This document shows positions 1-25,343 of a stretch of 64,000 nt of DNA, piece after piece. The translations under genes were made by a program, and so were the position numbers. The stretch is from Candidatus Heimdallarchaeota archaeon (lineage in GTDB: Archaea > Asgardarchaeota > Heimdallarchaeia > Heimdallarchaeales > Heimdallarchaeaceae), in contig JAUVXV010000005.1 of the NCBI GenBank assembly GCA_030603365.1, positions 64,001 through 128,000 on the forward strand, read 5' to 3'. A model generated the notes under the pieces. The model was not told where the DNA came from, did not search any database, and saw only the letters and a list, made by a program, of their open reading frames with translations. How positions within the stretch are numbered: position 1 is the first letter of the stretch; every line of letters begins with the position of its first letter.

Positions 1-224
1 GCCTTGGACTTTAATGCAAAGCTAATGATTTTATCTATATTCAAATACGTTTCTTGAACAGAACCATTTCCCAAACAAAATGCTTCATCAGCCATCTTTA
101 CATGAAGTGATGAAGAATCAATCTCTGAATAGATTGCGACAGTTTTTATTTTCAAAAGCCGGCATGCTCTTATTACCCTTACAGCTATTTCTCCACGGTT
201 GGCTATAAGGATTTTATTAAGCAT
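1..224 (-). CDS. accC: Biotin carboxylase of acyl-CoA carboxylase, N-terminal part (runs off the window edge); paralog of 13382..14884
   Basis: Manual translation from the ATG at 224 gives [67 protein letters not shown]. It has the ANRGEIA motif and is very similar to the N-terminus of 13382..14884. Not in the ORF track. Confidence 0.93.
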
Positions 225-244
225 TTGAAAATATTTCACTTGAT

Positions 245-420: not shown

Positions 421-2034
421 ATGTCGTTTTTATTCGACTTAAATGATACTAGTTTAATGTATCAGAAACCTAAGAATTTAACTGAGATTCAAGAAAACAA
501 TAAGTATACTACTCTACATGATAAGAGAAAAAAGAGTAGAGAAGGAGGAGGGGAAAAAAGGATTGAGAATCAACATCAGAAAGGAAAATTAACTGCCCGT
601 GAAAGGATTGAACTTTTAGTTGATGAAAATTCTTTCAATGAGATTGATGCTTTTGTTACACATCAATCTACTAAATTTAACATGTCAAATAATCGACCTT
701 TTGGAGATGGTGTTGTTACAGGTCATGCAAAAATCTCAGGTAGGACTGTCTATATTTATAGTCAAGATTTCACAATTTTTGGAGGAAGTTTGGGGAGAGC
801 TCAAGCAACTAAAATTTGTAAAATAATGGATTTAGCAGTAAAAACAGGAAATCCAATAATAAGCTTACTTGATTCAGGTGGAGCTAGAATACAGGAAGGG
901 GTTGCTTCTCTAGCGGGATACGGAGATATTTTCTATAGAAATACCCTAGCTTCTGGAGTAATTCCTCAAATTTCTGTTATACTTGGACCATGTGCTGGGG
1001 GAGCAGTTTACTCTCCAGCTTTAACAGATTTTGTTTTGATGAATAAAGAAAATTCCTTCATGTTTGTTACTGGTCCAGAAGTTGTAAAGGCCGTTACAGG
1101 AGAGGAGATCTCATTCTATGAATTGGGAGGAAGTGAAGTTCATAGTAATAAAACAGGATTATGTCATTTAGTTGGAGAAACCGAAGAAGAGACTTTAGAT
1201 CTTGTAAGGAAGCTATTTTCCTATCTGCCTTCTAACAATTTAAATGATGCTCCATTAGAAGCCAATTTACCAGAAGTAAATAATCAAAAAATTCTCAGAG
1301 ACCTGATCCCAGAAGAAGACAATGAACCTTATGATATGAAGGGTATTATTGGTGTTATCTTTGATTCTGATAGTTTTCTAGAATTGCAGGAAGATTGGGC
1401 AAAGAACATGGTAATTGGTTTCTCAAGGATAAATGGAAACACAGTTGGAATCATCGCAAATCAACCATTATTCTTGGGAGGAGCAATTGATTTTAACGCT
1501 GCAGACAAAGCATCCAGATTTATACGATTTTGTGATTCCTTTAACATACCAATATTGACTTTTGTTGATGTGCCTGGTTTCCTTCCAGGTATTAAACAAG
1601 AACATGAAGGAATTATCAGACACGGAGCAAAGCTTCTGTTTGCATATTCTGAAGCTACTGTTCCCAAAATCTCTGTTATAGTACGCAAAGCATATGGAGG
1701 GGCTTATATTGTGATGAGTTCCAAACATTTAGGAAATGATATTAATTTAGCTTGGCCAACAGCTGAAATAGCAGTTATGGGATCTGAGGGAGCATGCAGA
1801 ATACTCTATAGAGGTAAATTGAAAGAAGCTGAAAATCCAGATCAAGTTTTAGATGAATTTACCAACCAATTCAAAGAAGAATTTGCTAATCCATATCAAG
1901 CAGCTGAATTGGGTTACGTTGACAAAGTTGTTTTTCCAGAAGAGACTAGAAATGAAATTATCGTTTCTCTTAGTATTTTGAGAAATAAAAGAGAGCAAGC
2001 ACCAAAGAGGAAACATGGAATTTTTCCAGTTTAA
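421..2034 (+). CDS. pccB: Acyl-CoA carboxylase carboxyltransferase subunit (PccB/MmdA type)
   Basis: Motifs GKLTARERI, DSGGARIQEG, GPCAGGAVYSPA, DVPGFLPG, KAYGGAY and C-terminal KHG..P. Confidence 0.93.
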   Translation: MSFLFDLNDTSLMYQKPKNLTEIQENNKYTTLHDKRKKSREGGGEKRIENQHQKGKLTARERIELLVDENSFNEIDAFVTHQSTKFNMSNNRPFGDGVVTGHAKISGRTVYIYSQDFTIFGGSLGRAQATKICKIMDLAVKTGNPIISLLDSGGARIQEGVASLAGYGDIFYRNTLASGVIPQISVILGPCAGGAVYSPALTDFVLMNKENSFMFVTGPEVVKAVTGEEISFYELGGSEVHSNKTGLCHLVGETEEETLDLVRKLFSYLPSNNLNDAPLEANLPEVNNQKILRDLIPEEDNEPYDMKGIIGVIFDSDSFLELQEDWAKNMVIGFSRINGNTVGIIANQPLFLGGAIDFNAADKASRFIRFCDSFNIPILTFVDVPGFLPGIKQEHEGIIRHGAKLLFAYSEATVPKISVIVRKAYGGAYIVMSSKHLGNDINLAWPTAEIAVMGSEGACRILYRGKLKEAENPDQVLDEFTNQFKEEFANPYQAAELGYVDKVVFPEETRNEIIVSLSILRNKREQAPKRKHGIFPV

Positions 2035-5000
2035 GGTGATTTTAATGAAAACAAAAAGACAAATCGAAAAAGAGTTAATACCAAATAAAATCATTTGGGG
2101 ATTTTCTCCAAAAGGTATAAGCAATCCACAATTATCTATAGAACTCTCTCTTAAGGGAGGCGTAGGACTTATAGATCTTGAAGGATTTGATGACCACTCA
2201 CTCACTAGTATCATAACTGATTGTAGTACTAAAATTCCAGAAGATAACCTCTGGGGAGTAAGAATCTCTGAAGCTTCTCACATAGAAGTTTTGAATAAAT
2301 TTGACTTCATTCCACTACTTATCTTACCGGATAAAGTAAATGAAGAGTTGTTAATCGGACTAACTTGCAATTATACCTGGATAGTAGCTGAAGTAAATAG
2401 CCTCTCTGAAGCTCAATCAAAAACTGATTGGGCTGACTTCTTTCTTGTAAAAGGATTTGAAGCAGGTGGAAAGATAGGAGAAACATCTTCCTTTATTCTA
2501 ATACAAGAATTCACTGAAGCTGGCTTTCCCTTCATTATTCAAGGTGGATTTGGAGTTTACAACATTATTAGCGCATTAATTGGAGGTGCATTAGGAGTTG
2601 TACTTGAAGAACAATTGTCTCTACTTCCAGAATGTCCTCTTACTAAAGAAACAAAAGATTATCTTTCATCTCTTGATGAAAATGATACCTATATTGTTGG
2701 AGAAAGTTTTGAATTAAAGTATAGACTAGCTGGAAAAATAGCAAATAAATGGATAAGAGATTTCAAAAAATTTGAAAAAAGCTTGACACGTGAAAGCGTT
2801 CAGGAATTATCACACAAAATAGATAAAATCTCAAAGAATTCGTTGTTCTTGTCGGATCCTGAAATTAAAAATTCTTTTCTTCCTCTTGGAGTAGGCTTGA
2901 GATTTGCTTCATTCATATTAGAAAAATTTGGAGACTTGTCTTCTTTTCTAAAAGGAATTGAGAACATAATTAACAGTCAAATGAGTAATCTTTCAGAACA
3001 TTGGCCATTTGCTGAGGATAGTGATTTTGCAAAGAGTCTTGGAATTAAATTACCCATAATTCAAGGACCTATGGCAAATATTACTGATAATGCTAAGTTT
3101 GCATCTAAGGTTTCGGAAGAAGGAGCTTTGCCTGTTCTAGCTTTTGGAGGATTATTAAAAGAAGAAACAGAAGAACTTTATCTAGAGTTTAATTCAAAGT
3201 TTCCAGTAGATGCTCCTTATGCAGGTGGAATTATAGGATTAGAAGTAATGAAAGAGAGACGAGAAGCTCATATTTCCTTGATAAAGAAAAACAACACACC
3301 TTATTGTCTTTTAGCTGCAGGCTCTATTCAACTAGCATCTAGAATCCAAAAAGAAGGTACTAAAGTCATTCTTCATACTCCTGCATTAGCACTTTTCAAA
3401 GAAGCGCATCAAAATGGAATTGAACATCTTATTTTAGAAGGAAGTGAATGTGGGGGACATATTGGCACTCTGACATCATTAACTCTCTGGGAGACGATTA
3501 TTCAGTTTATAGAGAAAGAGAAAACCAATCTTAAACAAAAGATAAATGTGATTTTTGCTGGAGGAATTAGTGATGCGAAAAGTTCTGCTATGCTAGCAGG
3601 AATGATAGCTTGTCATTCAGAGTACATTTCTCCAGGAATACAAATGGGAACAGCTTATTTGTTCACTGAAGAAATTGTTAAGAGTCGAGCTTTAACATCA
3701 CAATATCAAGAACATCTTCTTAATTCTTCTAATACAAAAGTGATAGGATCAACAGTAAATACTCGAGCTAGAGTAATTCCTTCAGATTTTGTAGAATCTA
3801 CATTAGAAGTAGAACTTGAGAGAATTAGTTCAGGATTATCGATACAAGATAGAAAGAAATTATATGAAAAAGATAACTTGGGAGCTCTACGAATTGCAGC
3901 AAAAGCTGAAGTGTGGAATGATAAACACATACCTGGTGGTGATACAACTCAGTTTGTAGCTGCTAGCAAAAAGATTCAGGATAGCAAAGGATGTTACATG
4001 GCTGGAGAACTTATTAGCTTGAAAAGAAACATATTGCGAATTAAAGATCTTCATACTGATGTTGTAAATTCAAGTAGAACATACGTTAAACATCAAATTA
4101 CAGCAATAGAAAAAATGCTCCCTCACGATACTATAAAAGAAGAATCTCACTCTGATACTATATCTTTACCAATTGAAAATAGAGTAGCAATAGTTGGGAT
4201 GGGCTGTATTTTTCCAGATGCTTTGAACATCAATCAATTTTGGTCAAATGTAACTGATAAGAAATATTCGATAACAGAAATTCCTGAATCAAGATGGAGT
4301 ACTGAATTATATTTCAACGAGGATAAAACAGCTCCAAATAAATCCTATTCCAAAATTGGTTCTTTTATAACAGATTATGAATTTGCTTCTATCAAGTATC
4401 GAATACCACCTAAAATCGCTGAGAGGATGGATGAAGTTCAAAAATGGGCTATAGATGCCGCAAAACAAGCTCTAGACGATGCTGGAATTCCTACCGATGG
4501 AAAATCAAGATTGCCTGTTTCTGTAATAGTAGGGAATTCATTAGGAGGAGAGAATCAACGAACTACAAACAAAGGACTTTTTGTTCCTGAATTTCTAAAA
4601 GAAATGAAGAAAAACGAAGTATTTCAAGAGCTTTCAAAAGAAAAACAGAAAGTTATGATAAAACAACTTGAAGTATTCTATACTGAAAAATATCCTCCAG
4701 TAACAGAAGATTCTATGCCAGGTGAATTATCTAATGTGATTTCTGGAAGAATTGCAAATGTTTTCAATTTAACTGGAAAATCTATGACAACGGATGCAGC
4801 TTGTGCTTCTAGTATAGCAGCAATTGATACTGCTGTTAATTCTCTCCTTTCAAGAGAATTTGATGTTGCTCTTTCAGGTGGAGCAGATAGATCAATGGAT
4901 ATTTCCACCTATATTAAATTCTCTAAAATAGGTGCATTATCTGCAACAGGAACAAGACCTTTTGACGAAAAAGCAGATGGTTTCGTTATGGGAGAAGGAG

Positions 5001-8000
5001 CAGGTTTTGTTGTTCTTAAACGTCTAGAAGATGCAATTAAAGATGGAAATAAAATTTATGCTGTTATTGCTTCAATCGGATCTTCTTCTGATGGTAAAGG
5101 TAAAGCAATTACCGCTCCCAACCCAGAAGGACAAAAACAAGCTATTCAAATGGCTATGAGAAAGGCACATATTAATACAAATGAGGTCGATTATATCGAA
5201 GCTCATGGGACTTCTACTATTGTCGGTGATGCTGTTGAATTAAAAGTTTTGGAAGAAGTTTTTGAAAACCGTAAAAGAGAACAGAAAATTGCTGTAAGCT
5301 CTATAAAAAGCCAAATTGGACATCTTAAGAGTGCGGCTGGAATAGCTTCAATAATCAAAACATCTTTGTCTCTTCATCACAAAATTCTTCCTCCTTCAGT
5401 TAATGTGGAAAAACTGAATCCAAAAATAAATTGGAAAGAATCTCGATTGAAAGTAATCACCGAAACAGAGGATTGGAATCTTTCCAATAACGAAGTAGGT
5501 AGAGCTGGAGTATCTGCATTTGGTTTTGGCGGAACCAATTATCATGCGATTTTAGAAGAATTCAATCCTGAAAAAATCCTTTATGAAGAGAAACCCAAAC
5601 ATATTTCTTCAGTTCTACAAGAGGATGATACTGTTCAAGAACAAATTTCTCTTCAAAGTATTCTTCCTAAGCTTTGTTACATGTTTACTGGTCAAGGTAG
5701 CCAATATCTAGGCATGGCTAAACAACTCTATGAGAATTCTGATATAGTAAAGAGATTTTTCGAAAAAGCTGAAAAAATTTGGTACAATTACTATACTTAT
5801 AGCTTCAAGGAAATTGTATTTGGTTCAGAAAAATTGTCAGTAGAATCAAATAAGAAGAGATTAACCGATACAAAGTTTACTCAACCTACCATCTTTGTTG
5901 TAGATGTAGCAATAGCTAATCTCTTAGCAGAAGAGGGGATTGAACCGGACATTGTTGCAGGACACAGTTTGGGAGAATATGCTGCTTTGGTTATTGCTGG
6001 AGTTCTATCTTTTGAGGATGGATTAAGGGCAGTTATTGAACGGGGGAGATCTATGAGCAGAGCTGGGAATTCAGTTCCTGGTGCTATGGTAGCAATTCTT
6101 GCTCCTATAGATAAAGTAACAGAGATTGTCAAGGAAGTAAAAAATAACTATGTTACTGTAGCCAATTACAACTCTAAAAATCAAACTGTAGTATCTGGAG
6201 AAATAGAAGGTATTGAGCAGATCTTAGAAATCTCAAAGAAGAAGGGAATTACAGCAAAGAGACTGAATGTATCTACTGCATTCCATTCAAAGATTGTAAA
6301 ATCAGTTGAGGAAGAGATGGAAAAGGTTCTTGCAAGAATAGAATTCAAAAATCCACGAATACCTGTATATAGCAATGCTACTGGAAAAGCATACCCTTCA
6401 GAGCCAGAACAGATGAGAAATCTACTAGTTGAACAGGTCAGCTCTTCTGTTTTATGGGTAGATGAAATTCAGAATATTTACAATGCTGGTGCTAGATATT
6501 ATGTTGAGATAGGTCCAAAGAAAGCCTTATTCCATTTTGCTAAGGATATCTTAAAGGAGAAAACTGACATTTCAACTTTCATTACACTATTACCTAAAGA
6601 AGATGAGATTGATACAATTCAATCAACCTTGAATCAACTTAGTCAATTTGTTGGTTTTGTTTCATCTTCAGATTCTAGTACCCAAACCAAGGAAACAAGC
6701 TTAAATATAGCAACTAAATCTATAGATAGAATAGTTCTATCATCGGATAATGATTTTCAAAATTTTGTGAAAAATAATAGCAAGTATCTTGAGAATATCT
6801 TGAAAGCAGGGCACGAACTTTATTCAACATATTTAGGAGAAGAAAGAAAATCAGAAAAGTCTCATTCACACTTCGGGATTGACCATCACTTGATTGGTGT
6901 GACAGGAGTAGGAATTGGTCTTCCAGGTAAACAGAGGAATGTTTTCGATGATGAAAATATCGATTCAATCTTAGCTGGGGAGAATTTCATTGATTCTATC
7001 GCTCAGGAAATTAAACAAGACATTCTAGATAAGAATATCAACCGCTTAGTTAAATCTCCTGATGGATCAGCTTCCTTCGAGGAAATAGATGATCTAACTA
7101 AGGTAATTAGCCTAGCAGGACAGATAGGTAAATTTGATCCAGTTGGAGATTTTGGAATAAACGAAAAGTTTCTGAATTCTCTTGACATAACCTTCCAGTT
7201 AGCTATTTGTGCAGGATTAGATGCTTTGACTGATGCAGGAATACCTTTAGTCAAATCTTCATTTACGACTTCAACAGGAAAAGTACTGGAAGGTGAATGG
7301 GCTTTACCTGAATCTCTTCAAGAAGAGACAGGGATAATATTTGCTTCAGCATTTCCAGGTTATGATAATCTAATTAAAGAAATTCAAGAACATAAAAACC
7401 AAGGTGATGATAGGAAATTTAGCAGAAACTTTCTGTTTAAGATTCTTTCATTGGGACATGCTCAATTTGCTCAACTCATCAAAGCAAAAGGACCAAATAC
7501 CCAAATTAATGCTGCATGTGCATCTACTACTCAAGCAATAGGAATCGCGGAGGATTGGATACGTACAGGACGTTGTAATCGAGTAATAGTAATTGCAGCT
7601 GATGATGCCTCAAGTGAAAATCTTCTGCCTTGGATAGGTTCAGGATTTTTAGTTGCAGGAGGTGTTACAACTCAAGATAAAGTCGAAAATGCTGCATTAC
7701 CATTTGGTAAAGATAGACACGGATTAATCATAGGTTCAGCTGCAGCTTCTCTAGTACTTGAGAGTGAAGAAGCATATAATAAAAGAGGAGTAAAACCAAT
7801 AGTAGATCTAATTGGTTCTACTTTTGTAAACAGTGGATTTCATGGTTCAAGGTTGGATGTTCAACATATCTCTCATGTTTTCCAATCTTTTGTTGAGAAG
7901 ATAGAAAAGCAATATAACATTTCAAGAAAAGAGCTAGCAGAAGATGGAATGTTTGTTTCTCATGAAACTTATACTCCTGCTAGAGGAGGAAGTGCAGAAT

Positions 8001-11000
8001 CAGAGATAGAAGCACTCAAAAGAGTGTTTGGGAAGGATTCAAGTAAGATTACTATTGTTAACACAAAGGGTTTCACAGGACATTCAATGGGAGCTGGAAT
8101 AGAAGAGTGTATTGCAATAAAATCTATAGAAAAAGGAAAAATTCCCCCTATTGCTAACATGGACAAAATAGATCCGATTTTCTCTGAGTTGAACTTTTCC
8201 AAAGGTGAAAATCGACGCGTAAAATATGCTATAAGATTAGCTGCAGGATTTGGCTCTCAGATAGCTTTTACTGCTTTTAGACTTAATACATATGAAGATA
8301 GATATGATTTAATTCTTCATGAAGAATGGTTAAATCAACTAGGAGGAGATATGAGAAGTACTTTTCTGGATGGTCGAGTTTTGAAGCTTAGAACAAGATC
8401 TAGACAAGAACAAGTATCTCATGTTGCATCAACAACATCTATTGTTCAAGAAACAGTGGTATTCAAAGAAATTCTCCCTGGTGTGATTTCAATTATTTCT
8501 GAAATAACTGGTTATGAAGCCAATCTGATTGAAGCTGAGATGCACCTTGAAGAGGATCTGGGAATAGATACTGTAAAACAAGCCGAGATTTTTGGTATTG
8601 TTCGAGAAAAATGGGGTTTAGATTTAGACGAAACAGTAAGTCTTGTTGAATTTACATCACCACAAAAAATAGCTGAGTATATTCAAAGTAATATGAAAGG
8701 TGTGAATGATATTGAAACAGCTGTTTCACAAGTCAAAGGTGGTCAGTTTGAGGATATATCCTTTAAGATTAGAGAAGTAGTATCTGAAACAACAGGATAT
8801 GAACAAGATTTAATTGAATACGATATGGATCTTGAAGAAGATCTGGGAATAGACACTATCAAACAAGCAGAGATTTTCGGTGACATAAGAGAAATATTTG
8901 ATTTGCCAGTTGATGAGTCAGTGAGTTTAGCTGAATTCAGGTCAATAAATGACATTGCGAAATATGTGTCTCAGTCTATTGGAGCTGAACAAAAAATCAT
9001 TACAGAGAGCTCTGATGATCAAAAACAAAAACAAATTACAGCTGACAAAGTTGAAGATGAAAAGAGCCTTGTTCGTATTGACAATCTAATTACAGTACCA
9101 GTTCCTTTGAATAAAAAAGATGCTGAGAAAATTACTCTAAAAGATATTTCTTCATTAGTAGTCAACATAAATTCAGATTTGCGGAACAGCTTAACGGAAA
9201 CATTGGTTGAGAAAAAGGCTAAATTTGTTGAACATAATTTACTAAAAGATGAAATTTCTTCAATACCAGAAAAGGAATTTGACCTCTTCATTTTAGTTCT
9301 CCCAGGTGTAAAATCAGAACCTGGTTATATCGACCAAGAGATTTACAGAAAACTTTTTTCGCTATTTCAATCTCTTGAATTGCAGAAAGGAAATAGGATT
9401 GTCGCATTATCTGAAGAGAGTTTCTTTGGTCTTAAAGAAGGTGCTAATCCAATATCTGGAGGAATATCAGGATTTGTGAAAACCTTAGGTTTAGAGTTTG
9501 ATATGCCCTATAAGCACATTTATTCTGAAAACATCGCTGATATAATTCAAGAGCTTGAATACTGGGATGGTATAATAGAAATTGCATTTGATAAAAAAGG
9601 ACGTTTCACTCTTGCTAATCTTGATATTAGTAATTATCTTACTCAGTCATCAAAAATTGATATAGAGAAAGATGATCTGATTTTAGTAACTGGAGGTGGA
9701 CGAGGTATCACCTTCAAATGCATTGAAGCTTTAAGTACAATAGTAAAATCTAAAGTTGCTATAATTGGAATTGAGGACATCTCTGATATTAATTCTGATA
9801 TGCTTCAATTTTCCGATGATGATTTAGAACTAAGAAAACAACAACTTATCAAAGAATTAAAAGAATCAGAAGAGAAAGTTACACCTGTTCTCATAGATAA
9901 ACACTGGAACAGATTCCTTTTCGGCTTAGAAGTTACTCGCAACATTGAAAAACTAAGAAAAATGAGAATTCAGGCAGAATATAGACGCGTAGATGTAACT
10001 AATAAAGAAGCTGTTGAGAAAACAATCAGAGAAATTGAAGACCACTTCCAAACATCTGTTAGTCATATCATACATGGTGCTGGTCTAGAAGAATCAAAAT
10101 CTTTCAAGAAGAAGAAAATAGATTTTTCCAATCTTATAGTTTCTGTGAAGGTTGAAGGAATTTGGAACGTTCTCAATTCTGTTAACACTAAGAAACTAAA
10201 ACGAGTTGTATGTTTCACTTCAATTGCTGGTCGGTATGGTAACAGAGGTCAAGTAGACTATTCTTTTGCAAATGGTTACTTATCTAGACTATGTTGGAAG
10301 CTAAATCAACAGGGTGTATCTGCACTTGCTTGCGATTGGTCTGCCTGGGGAGGAGTTGGAATGGCAACAAGAGGCTCTATAATGGACATATTAACATCTC
10401 AAGGGATTAATCCTATACCTTTACAAGACGGGACTGAAACTTTTGTTAAGCTCTTTCTAAACACAATCGGAAATGAAGTTGTGGTTTCTTGCGGTCTTGG
10501 TCCATTTGAGCAATTATCTAACATCCAATCGGAGATTAAAGAAAAGAAATATCCTATGATCAATAGAATTGAATATTCTGAATCAAAATTCTATGCAAGA
10601 AAGTCAATATCTTCTTCAACTGATCTTTACTTAAACGATCATCAAATTCAACAAACACCTATATTTCCAGGAGTTATGGGGTTGGAAATGTTTGCTGAAA
10701 CATTTGAACTAGTCTCAGCACAGAAACCTGTTAGTTTCACAAAAGTAGAATTCAATACAGCACTGAAGATTCAACAATCACAAGCTAAAGAAGTTTACGT
10801 TGAATATAAATCAGATTTAGGAGAAATGCGGTTAAAATCTGATTTTGTTGCAAAAATCGAACCAAGCAAAACAAGAGAAATAGAACACTTTAGAGTGAAT
10901 GTAGATACTTTATCAAAAAGAAGGAAATCAAAGAAATCTAAACATATAATTAGAGAATCGAAGATTAATCTGCTCACAAAAGAAGATATTTATTCATTCT

Positions 11001-24092: not shown

Positions 24093-25343
24093 ATGGCTAG
24101 AGAAGTGTGGAGGACAGAAGTGATGGAAACTACTCCCCACACTGCACTCGACCTTCTCTGTCATCAAACCAAGAACCTCTATAATAGGGCAATGTATGTA
24201 TTCAAACAACATTATACTCAAACAAAACATTGGCTGTCGTATCAGCAATTAAACAGGCAGCTGAAACAAGAGCCGTGCTACAGAATCTTGCCAGTTCATA
24301 CAGCCCAACACACCCTCAAGCTCCTCTCCCGCAACTGGAATGGATTTGGGAGGGCAATTAGGGAATTTCACAGCAATCCTCAAGCATTCCTTGGTAAACC
24401 CCGTCCTCCAGGATATAGGCCGAAGAATGGCCAACAAGTAGCGATTTTTACTAACCAACAAGCTAAGTTAAGGGATAATAGGTTACTTTTACCCAAGAAA
24501 GTTCCGTTTTCTATCAAAACTCGCTTACCAGACCATGTGAAACTTAAGGAAGTGCGTGTTGTCCCTCGAGGGGTAGGGTATACAATCGAGCTAGTTTATA
24601 GTAAGCTTGTTCCAGAAGTAGAGGTGCAAGGAACAAACATAGGAGCGATAGACCTAGGAGTCCACAACCTTCTCACTTATGTAGACAACATCCAGGGAAG
24701 ACCGATTGTTGTCAAGGATGAAGGAAAAGGGATCAAATCTACTATCAGGTACTATTTGAAAGAAATCAAGAAATTGCAAAACAAGTATGCACAGCAACAA
24801 AGATTAGCATTGAAACAACAGAACAGATTAGAGTACGGACAACGATTTCGCCACCTTCGTGAAATAAAACGTAGACTAGTGAAAGAGTGGATCCATCAGA
24901 TGAGTAGGAAGTTTGTCCAGCTTTGGGTACAAACAGGAATCCAACACGTATATATAGGATATAACCCCCTCTGGAAACAACAAGTGAAGTTAAGGAAGAA
25001 GACCACCCAGATGTTTGTTATCCTCCCGTTTGACCGATTTATCCACGCGCTCAAATACAAGGCTGAAGAGCATGGAATCATTGTTGAAAGGGTAGAAGAA
25101 TCTTACACTTCCAAGTGTAGTTTTCTAGATAATGAATCCCCTCAAAAGCATTCTACTTACCAAGGACGAAGACCCAAACGAGGGTTGTTCAAATCTGCAA
25201 CAGGCGTACTCATCAATGCTGATGTGAATGGGGCATACAATATTTTACTCAAAGGCGATCCGCAAGCACTACCTTCTTGTAGTGTGGGCGGGGTAGGAGG
25301 ATATGTGATTTATCCGCTTAGATGGAGTTTCGAGCTTTATTAA
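24093..25343 (+). CDS. tnpB: TnpB RNA-guided endonuclease (IS200/IS605 superfamily), RuvC-II-rearranged type
   Basis: KNLYN, RuvC-I AIDLG, YIGYN (Gly at the usual Glu), VEESYTSKCS and RuvC-III NADVNGAYNI. Visibly more GC-rich than its flanks. Confidence 0.93.
   Translation: MAREVWRTEVMETTPHTALDLLCHQTKNLYNRAMYVFKQHYTQTKHWLSYQQLNRQLKQEPCYRILPVHTAQHTLKLLSRNWNGFGRAIREFHSNPQAFLGKPRPPGYRPKNGQQVAIFTNQQAKLRDNRLLLPKKVPFSIKTRLPDHVKLKEVRVVPRGVGYTIELVYSKLVPEVEVQGTNIGAIDLGVHNLLTYVDNIQGRPIVVKDEGKGIKSTIRYYLKEIKKLQNKYAQQQRLALKQQNRLEYGQRFRHLREIKRRLVKEWIHQMSRKFVQLWVQTGIQHVYIGYNPLWKQQVKLRKKTTQMFVILPFDRFIHALKYKAEEHGIIVERVEESYTSKCSFLDNESPQKHSTYQGRRPKRGLFKSATGVLINADVNGAYNILLKGDPQALPSCSVGGVGGYVIYPLRWSFELY

What the first reader, a model, noticed from the sequence alone, without database searches (positions are those of the whole stretch)
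8470..8975. Both carrier domains have Thr, not Ser, at the phosphopantetheine site
Seen: ACP1 is DLGIDTVKQAEI (ACT at 8570-8572) and ACP2 is DLGIDTIKQAEI (ACT at 8855-8857). No Ser-type ACP is evident in the cluster. Established: PfaA-type ACPs read LGIDSIK and PPTases modify that Ser. The change occurs twice, so a sequencing error is unlikely. Inference: the fused PPTase may be specialised to load Ppant on threonine, which would explain the fusion. The alternatives are inactive ACPs or CoA-tethered chemistry.
Basis: partly seen in the sequence, partly recalled or inferred. Interest (0 to 1): 0.78.

Follow-up and report, generated by a model that had tools for sequence, protein, structure and literature searches.

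The report
Threonine-type carrier domains, Asgard synthase
Both carrier domains of a giant fatty-acid-type synthase in an Asgard archaeon have threonine where studied carrier proteins have the serine that holds their swinging arm; this is the rule in a large bacterial and archaeal enzyme family that keeps its own arm-attaching enzyme, so an undescribed threonine-linked arm is likely but unproven.

Summary
Observation confirmed: Thr2186 (8570-8572) and Thr2281 (8855-8857) occupy the phosphopantetheine (Ppant) serine position of two ACP domains in a 3,371-aa ER-KS-AT-KS-ACP2-KR-DH-PPTase synthase of a Heimdallarchaeia-group genome. It is not decay: 329 Thr versus 10 Ser among ACPs of 120 homologues, all four Thr codons used, catalytic residues conserved, and the site switches only between Thr and Ser. 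I found no Ser-type carrier in this genome (89% complete), so the intact fused PPTase has only Thr sites to act on. In 121 Desulfobacteria-class genomes a dedicated PPTase accompanies the synthase (34/35 versus 2/86), and none of the 35 has both FabF and FabD (56/86 of the others do). Best reading (0.7): Ppant is attached to Thr by a cognate Sfp-type PPTase; not shown biochemically, and E. coli ACP S36T is not modified. The family resembles Type R/S lipid synthases (Shulse and Allen 2011), a paper that never mentions threonine. This scan has reported the same trait before in other genomes (72 notes match these words).

The parts
8462..8710 (+). ACP1 (aa 2150-2232), Thr2186 at the Ppant position (codon 8570-8572)
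8747..8992 (+). ACP2 (aa 2245-2326), Thr2281 at the Ppant position (codon 8855-8857); Pfam PF00550 match
2015..12130 (+). 3,371-aa type I iterative fatty-acid/polyketide-type synthase, ER'-ER-KS-AT-KS-ACP-ACP-KR-DH-PPTase
2072..2974 (+). first FabK/PfaD-like barrel, lacks the His seen in the second (probably non-catalytic; boundaries approximate)
3026..4084 (+). FabK/PfaD-like enoyl reductase, His482 conserved in 113/114
4178..5575 (+). KS1, Cys930/His1064/His1103
5669..6604 (+). acyltransferase, Ser1318/His1424 invariant in 204/204
6887..8299 (+). KS2, complete Cys1835/His1983/His2023 triad (not a chain-length factor)
9092..10444 (+). ketoreductase region, Tyr2749 invariant in 194/194
10502..11404 (+). 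PKS-type dehydratase, His2876 and Glu3043
11462..12127 (+). fused Sfp-type PPTase, His3245/Asp3262/Glu3264/Lys3300/Glu3301/Lys3305; the only PPTase found in the genome
421..2034 (+). acyl-CoA carboxylase carboxyltransferase (extender supply); conserved neighbour
12127..12888 (+). alpha/beta hydrolase overlapping the synthase stop; candidate thioesterase (inferred)
12889..13377 (-). biotin carboxyl carrier protein
13382..14884 (-). biotin carboxylase

Best explanation
The two domains are working acyl carrier proteins whose 4'-phosphopantetheine arm is attached through the hydroxyl of threonine instead of serine. The fused Sfp-type PPTase, a member of a subfamily that accompanies these synthases, docks on ACP helix II, uses Glu3301 as base and transfers Ppant from CoA to Thr2186 and Thr2281 (inferred from Sfp chemistry). 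The arm then carries malonyl units, made by the flanking carboxylase and loaded by the AT, through KS, KR, DH and ER cycles to give a reduced acyl chain, probably released by the adjacent hydrolase (inferred). Shown: position and conservation of Thr, intact catalytic residues, PPTase co-occurrence, anticorrelation with FAS II. Inferred: the covalent linkage, the product, and the release step.
For: (1) Thr is the norm: 329 Thr vs 10 Ser in 357 ACP-like domains of 120 homologues found with the whole protein; of 1,057 distinct well-formed ACPs from all searches 932 have Thr, 124 Ser (99 of PfaA type), 1 other (part of this set was found with ACP-derived queries). (2) Selection is on the residue: all four ACN codons are used (34/27/25/20). 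(3) Ser forms are nested inside Thr clades of an AT-domain tree (P0083; P0017 and P0060 with Ser-Thr-Ser; P0071; P0161), so the site toggles between the two hydroxyl residues. (4) Thr is not needed for the fold: a free ACP-fold protein in the same genus has Lys, Glu or Asn there, and degenerate ACP-like copies inside the synthases lose the motif. (5) KS, AT, KR, DH, ER and PPTase catalytic residues are nearly invariant (PPTase Asp 127/127, Lys 126/126, Glu 125/125). (6) In this genome the only PPTase found is the fused one and no Ser carrier was found. (7) In 121 genomes of the class of Desulfospira, 35 carry the synthase (34 Thr, 1 Ser); the dedicated stand-alone PPTase is in 34 of 35 against 2 of 86 others; FabF 7/35 vs 65/86, FabD 3/35 vs 64/86, both 0/35 vs 56/86. 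(8) A predicted ACP1-PPTase-CoA-Mg complex scores 0.68 against a best control of 0.17 (mark reached by 58 of 80 solved and 2 of 110 mismatched pairs; runs agree in at least 96% of contacts; partner pLDDT at least 80) and places Glu3301 against Thr2186; this may reflect likeness to the solved Sfp-carrier complex.
Against: No biochemical evidence. E. coli ACP S36T is described as unable to take Ppant and non-functional (PMC3340395), so ordinary AcpS does not do it. I found no paper reporting a Thr-linked Ppant (library incomplete). No PPTase residue could be tied specifically to Thr: the few PPTases fused to Ser-containing members share the same signature. The genome is 89% complete, so a Ser carrier could be missing from the assembly. 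The FAS II anticorrelation is among related genomes, and most of those bacteria also have a second AT-bearing megasynthase (PfaA-like with Ser ACPs where I read them) and, at least in Desulfospira, a free Ser ACP.
Confidence: 0.7

Rival explanations
1. The domains stay unmodified and act as non-covalent shuttles or docking units; the chemistry runs on acyl-CoA, or the PPTase domain binds CoA without transferring Ppant.
For: S36T blocks modification in E. coli. Archaeal ACP-independent, CoA-based fatty-acid routes have been proposed (own knowledge). ACP-fold proteins without a Ser exist in this genome.
Against: Does not explain why the site is limited to Thr or Ser, why ACP copy number expands to 2-6 as in Pfa synthases, why an AT is invariant, or why the PPTase keeps its Mg ligands and general base.
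Confidence: 0.11
2. The Thr carries a different CoA-derived group, or the PPTase serves an undetected Ser carrier in trans that does the real carrying.
For: Desulfospira keeps a free Ser ACP and has no AcpS-size PPTase in the PF01648 search, so there the dedicated PPTase could serve that ACP. The window genome is incomplete.
Against: In the 24 other genus genomes the PF00550 hits were the synthase and the small Ser-less protein (13 of those small proteins read); the transferase is a normal Sfp-fold enzyme.
Confidence: 0.08
3. Ppant goes on another hydroxyl of the ACP, such as the invariant Thr that ends helix I or the Thr/Ser before helix IV.
For: Column 13 is Thr in 99% and column 63 is Thr/Ser in 97% of family ACPs.
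Against: The helix I motif is also present in Ser-type tandem ACPs such as PigH; in the predicted complex the residue touching the catalytic Glu is Thr2186.
Confidence: 0.05
4. The codon is read or edited to Ser (recoding, editing or Ser mischarging of tRNA-Thr), so the active fraction has ordinary Ser.
For: ACY-AGY and ACN-TCN are single-base neighbours; in-family Ser sites use AGY or TCN codons.
Against: All four ACN codons occur, in archaea and several bacterial phyla; the AT active-site Ser is encoded as Ser in 204/204. Selection would simply fix Ser.
Confidence: 0.03
5. The ACPs are inactive and the cluster is decaying.
For: Thr at this site is the classic inactivating change.
Against: Open 10 kb frame, synthase found in 26 of 30 family genomes, conserved synteny with carboxylase genes, invariant catalytic residues.
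Confidence: 0.03

Closest known systems
'Type R' and 'Type S' secondary lipid synthases (Shulse and Allen 2011, PMC3098273)
   Same: PfaA-like core KS-MAT-KS-ACP(n)-KR with its own PPTase and linked acetyl-CoA carboxylase genes; PPTase motif hShxH and no hRxhLS motif; found in Elusimicrobia, Chloroflexi and Desulfobacteria; the paper already suggested Type S is the core fatty-acid synthase of D. autotrophicum, which lacks fabA/fabZ.
   Different: The paper never mentions threonine or serine and calls the second KS a CLF, whereas its catalytic triad is intact in this family. The window protein adds N-terminal ER barrels, a DH and a fused PPTase, has two ACPs and is archaeal. I could not retrieve the named strains' sequences.
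PfaA tandem ACPs of PUFA synthases (TIGR02813) with PfaE
   Same: Homologous tandem ACPs with the same helix I and pre-helix II motifs; KS and AT homologous (883.8 bits).
   Different: PfaA-type ACPs read D-S-I-K-R, this family D-T-V-K-Q; score below the 1010.1 cut-off; single polypeptide; PPTase of another subfamily.
Sfp-type PPTases (Sfp 1qr0/4mrt, human AASDHPPT 2byd) and the fused PPTase of fungal FAS alpha
   Same: His, Asp, Glu, Lys-Glu, Lys active-site residues align with Sfp; C-terminal fusion to a megasynthase as in fungal FAS.
   Different: All characterised ones modify Ser (own knowledge; PMC13001928 abstract). The N-terminal half resembles AcpS more than Sfp does, and helix II docking residues differ (Phe3273/Ala3277 vs Sfp Ile118/Phe122).
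E. coli ACP S36T mutant (PMC3340395)
   Same: Same Ser-to-Thr change at the same position.
   Different: Engineered, unmodified and non-functional; here Thr is the natural, selected state with a dedicated PPTase.

Membership tests
Acyl carrier protein / PP-binding (PF00550) | Profile match above the curated cut-off | tested here: met
   45 bits vs cut-off 20.8, best stretch aa 2251-2318; both domains match a family HMM at 95-100 bits
Acyl carrier protein / PP-binding (PF00550) | Conserved Ser at the start of helix II | tested here: not met
   Thr2186 and Thr2281
Acyl carrier protein / PP-binding (PF00550) | Covalent 4'-phosphopantetheine at that residue | not testable with these tools
   needs mass spectrometry; only a predicted complex is available
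PfaA (TIGR02813) | Whole-protein score above cut-off | tested here: not met
   883.8 vs 1010.1
PfaA (TIGR02813) | KS-MAT-ACP(4-6)-KR order with Ser ACPs | tested here: not met
   extra KS between AT and ACP, extra ER, DH, PPTase; two Thr ACPs
Type R/S secondary lipid synthase (Shulse and Allen 2011) | KS-MAT-(KS-like)-ACP(n)-KR core with own PPTase and linked carboxylase genes | tested here: met
   window; Elusimicrobiaceae and Anaerolineae homologues with PPTase and carboxyltransferase directly downstream
Type R/S secondary lipid synthase (Shulse and Allen 2011) | Second KS is a CLF; 3-6 ACPs; PPTase on a separate gene (Type R as worded) | tested here: not met
   KS2 keeps Cys-His-His in 204-205 of 205; two ACPs; fused PPTase
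Type R/S secondary lipid synthase (Shulse and Allen 2011) | PPTase has hShxH (P1b') and lacks hRxhLS (P0) | tested here: met
Type R/S secondary lipid synthase (Shulse and Allen 2011) | KS phylogeny groups with the named strains (Koribacter, Solibacter, E. minutum, Roseiflexus, D. autotrophicum) | not tested
   their sequences were not retrieved
Sfp-type PPTase | Pseudo-dimeric ~220 aa domain with His, Asp-x-Glu and Trp-x-x-Lys-Glu-x-x-x-Lys | tested here: met
Sfp-type PPTase | Transfers Ppant to a carrier Ser | not testable with these tools
   no Ser carrier found in this genome; activity untested

The most novel reading that the evidence does not exclude
A cross-domain family of type I synthases (Asgard and Thermoplasmatota archaea, Desulfobacterota, Bradymonadales, Anaerolineae, Elusimicrobiota, Saprospirales) naturally uses O-phosphopantetheinyl-threonine, installed by its own PPTase subfamily as a carrier/transferase pair separate from the cell's Ser carriers, and serves as the main fatty-acid synthase in lineages that lack FAS II.
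Probability: 0.55. Interest if true: 0.85.

Novelty: new variant of a known kind. Interest (0 to 1): 0.7.

Why it matters
The Ppant-accepting serine is treated as invariant, and Ser-to-Thr is used as an inactivating mutation; annotation rules would call these carriers dead. A natural Thr linkage would be a new form of a textbook modification and could give a PPTase/tag pair that does not cross-react with AcpS or Sfp, useful for labelling and pathway insulation. It would also make the synthase a credible fatty-acid source for organisms described as lacking fatty-acid synthesis (Bradymonadales, PMC7460792) and for Asgard archaea, which bears on the lipid history of eukaryotes. The test is one mass-spectrometry experiment, and cultured hosts exist (Desulfobacula toluolica, Desulfobacter, Lujinxingia).

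Tried and rejected
Literature: ten searches found no report of Thr-linked Ppant, of this motif, or of the synthase in Asgard archaea; the library lacks most subscription papers. The E. minutum genome paper was not held. Fusion as a consequence of Thr: rejected. Free small ACP as the true PPTase substrate: raised, rejected because it has no Ser/Thr at the site. A PPTase residue specific for Thr: not found; only 5 PPTases fused to Ser-containing members and 8 canonical ones were available. Sequencing runs: no RNA holder listed, so expression was not assessed; three of four runs laid gave only short or partial pieces. Plasmid collection: only distant matches below 60% identity. Naming Type R strains through cluster look-ups failed. 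The root of the AT tree is unreliable (long outgroup branches), so I use only the nesting of Ser forms in supported Thr clades, not the direction of the first change. The Fisher value is not used as evidence because the genomes are related. No separate fold prediction was run.

Full report
1. Observation. The stretch lies in a 3,371-aa ORF at 2015-12130 (+). The residue at the Ppant position is Thr in both carrier domains: Thr2186, codon ACT at 8570-8572, and Thr2281, codon ACT at 8855-8857. Alignment to solved carriers (PigH, AcpM) puts this Thr in the column of their Ser. A contig from a public run matches 8744-9015 without a difference, and both ACPs are Thr in every same-genus locus read, with varying third codon positions.

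2. Anatomy. Pfam and NCBIfam give ER(FabK/PfaD-like)-KS-AT-KS-ACP-ACP-KR-DH-PPTase. Neighbours are a carboxyltransferase (421-2034), an alpha/beta hydrolase (12127-12888), BCCP and biotin carboxylase (12889-14884), conserved in order in Heimdallarchaeota loci. The closest homologues are named Heimdallarchaeota, and the ACP region is found in 26 of 30 genomes of the family. Catalytic residues are intact here and nearly invariant in about 200 homologues: KS1 Cys930, AT Ser1318 and His1424, KS2 Cys1835/His1983/His2023, KR Tyr2749, DH His2876, ER His482, and PPTase His3245, Asp3262, Glu3264, Lys3300, Glu3301, Lys3305. The PPTase aligns with Sfp over its active site.

3. Thr is the family norm. In the 120 best whole-protein homologues, 329 of 357 ACP-like domains have Thr, 10 have Ser, and the rest are degenerate copies that have lost the motif. 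Over all proteins collected, 1,057 distinct well-formed ACPs split into 932 Thr, 124 Ser (99 with the PfaA-type Arg at +3) and one other; part of this set came from ACP-seeded searches and is biased. Named carriers include Heimdall- and Lokiarchaeia, Kariarchaeum, Poseidoniales, Desulfobacula, Desulfobacter, Desulfospira, Desulfomonile, Lujinxingia, Anaerolineae, Elusimicrobiaceae and Saprospirales. A profile search finds 1,401 clusters at E 1e-30 or better, a count that includes PfaA-type Ser proteins. All four Thr codons are used. On an AT-domain tree, Ser-bearing members sit inside supported Thr clades in several places, and a further all-Ser member turned up in Desulfobacteria (G068). So the site exchanges only between the two hydroxyl residues. 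In-family Thr is followed by Val in 900 of 939 cases, in-family Ser by Ile in 14 of 16, which suggests a trade of one methyl group; this is a small sample and an inference.

4. What could the PPTase modify? The genome search found one PPTase, one AT and KS domains only in this ORF. Relatives showed a small free ACP-fold gene, also present here at C2:76942-77190. It has Lys, Glu or Asn at the site and so cannot accept Ppant there; it also shows that the fold does not need Thr. With the caveat of 89% completeness, the conserved PPTase has only Thr carriers available. A predicted complex of ACP1 with the PPTase, CoA and Mg scored 0.68 against a best control of 0.17 (mark reached by 58 of 80 solved complexes and 2 of 110 mismatched pairs; runs agree in at least 96% of contacts; partner pLDDT at least 80) and lists Glu3301-Thr2186 among its contacts. 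Sfp-carrier complexes are solved, so this shows likeness and correct register, not chemistry.

5. Fusion is incidental, the dedicated PPTase is not. Of the all-Thr proteins, 123 have a fused PPTase and 55 that reach through the DH do not. In those the PPTase is the next gene (Ca. Leptofilum, Elusimicrobiaceae, Desulfobacter curvatus) or lies elsewhere (Desulfobacula, Desulfospira). In 121 genomes of the class of Desulfospira, 35 have the synthase; the stand-alone PPTase of this subfamily is found in 34 of them and in 2 of the other 86. These PPTases share a signature absent from 8 canonical Sfp-type enzymes of the same phylum, but the five PPTases fused to Ser-containing members share it too, so no residue can be assigned to Thr selectivity.

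6. The synthase appears to replace FAS II. In the same sample FabF is above cut-off in 7 of 35 synthase genomes against 65 of 86 others, FabD in 3 against 64, and both in 0 against 56. Desulfospira has no stand-alone FabF/FabB or FabD. Bradymonadales were reported to lack FabB/F and FabI/L (PMC7460792), yet Lujinxingia has the Thr synthase beside carboxylase genes. This suggests an essential, working enzyme, which needs loaded carriers. The genomes are related and most have a second megasynthase, so this is support, not proof. In the window genome, three PlsY and 14 DegV homologues but no PlsC were found, compatible with use of free fatty acids; the product is unknown.

7. Comparison with what is known. 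The family matches the description of Type R and S secondary lipid synthases (PMC3098273), which were defined from genomes and never characterised there; the paper contains neither 'threonine' nor 'serine'. I could not test membership against the named strains. It is not PfaA. E. coli ACP S36T is described as unmodifiable (PMC3340395), which is the main evidence against and the reason the finding is surprising. No paper on Thr-linked Ppant was found.

8. Verdict. Real, strongly selected, family-wide. Most likely Ppant is linked to Thr by a cognate PPTase (0.7); rivals are unmodified shuttles (0.11), another group or a trans carrier (0.08), another residue (0.05), recoding (0.03) and decay (0.03). 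Novelty: new variant of a known kind. The scan has reached the same reading in other genomes; those notes are not independent evidence and did not set my odds.

Noticed in passing
G000:C2:76942-77190 (outside the window); L172-L184, L191: A free 80-85 aa ACP-fold protein with no Ser/Thr at the Ppant site is conserved across the genus and family, usually beside the same ~310-aa and ~430-aa genes. Function unexplained.
   Followed up: partly
window 6887-8299: The second KS keeps a full Cys-His-His triad in 204-205 of 205 homologues, so it is probably an active condensing or priming domain, not a chain-length factor.
   Followed up: partly
G000 whole genome (for example C14:96219-100529): 14 DegV (fatty-acid-binding) homologues and 3 PlsY homologues, one PlsY about 3 kb from a DegV; no PlsC or MBOAT found.
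   Followed up: no
window 3-239 and G000:C9:61137-64239: A second biotin carboxylase and a second carboxyltransferase (81% identical to 421-2034) lie just upstream of the window, facing each other.
   Followed up: no
L137 (G030:C1), L144 (G027:C1); P0017, P0060: Two single-contig Heimdall genomes have a Ser-Thr-Ser ACP array in one polypeptide, a natural internal control for the loading experiment.
   Followed up: partly
L075 (Lujinxingia litoralis): Bradymonadales, published as deficient in fatty-acid synthesis, carry this synthase next to BCCP and carboxyltransferase genes.
   Followed up: partly
L049 (Desulfospira joergensenii): A free Ser ACP remains beside rpiB-like and glyA-like genes while no fabF or fabD was found, suggesting loss of FAS II around it.
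   Followed up: partly
L185-L188: Other genomes of the same archaeal class carry a small AcpS-size PPTase, a ~620-aa gene and a free Ser-type ACP in one cluster, unrelated to the synthase.
   Followed up: no
window 24093-25343: IS605-type TnpB/Cas12f-like gene.
   Followed up: no
window 17639-18223: Gtr1/RagA-family small GTPase, an Asgard eukaryotic-signature protein, next to NreA.
   Followed up: no
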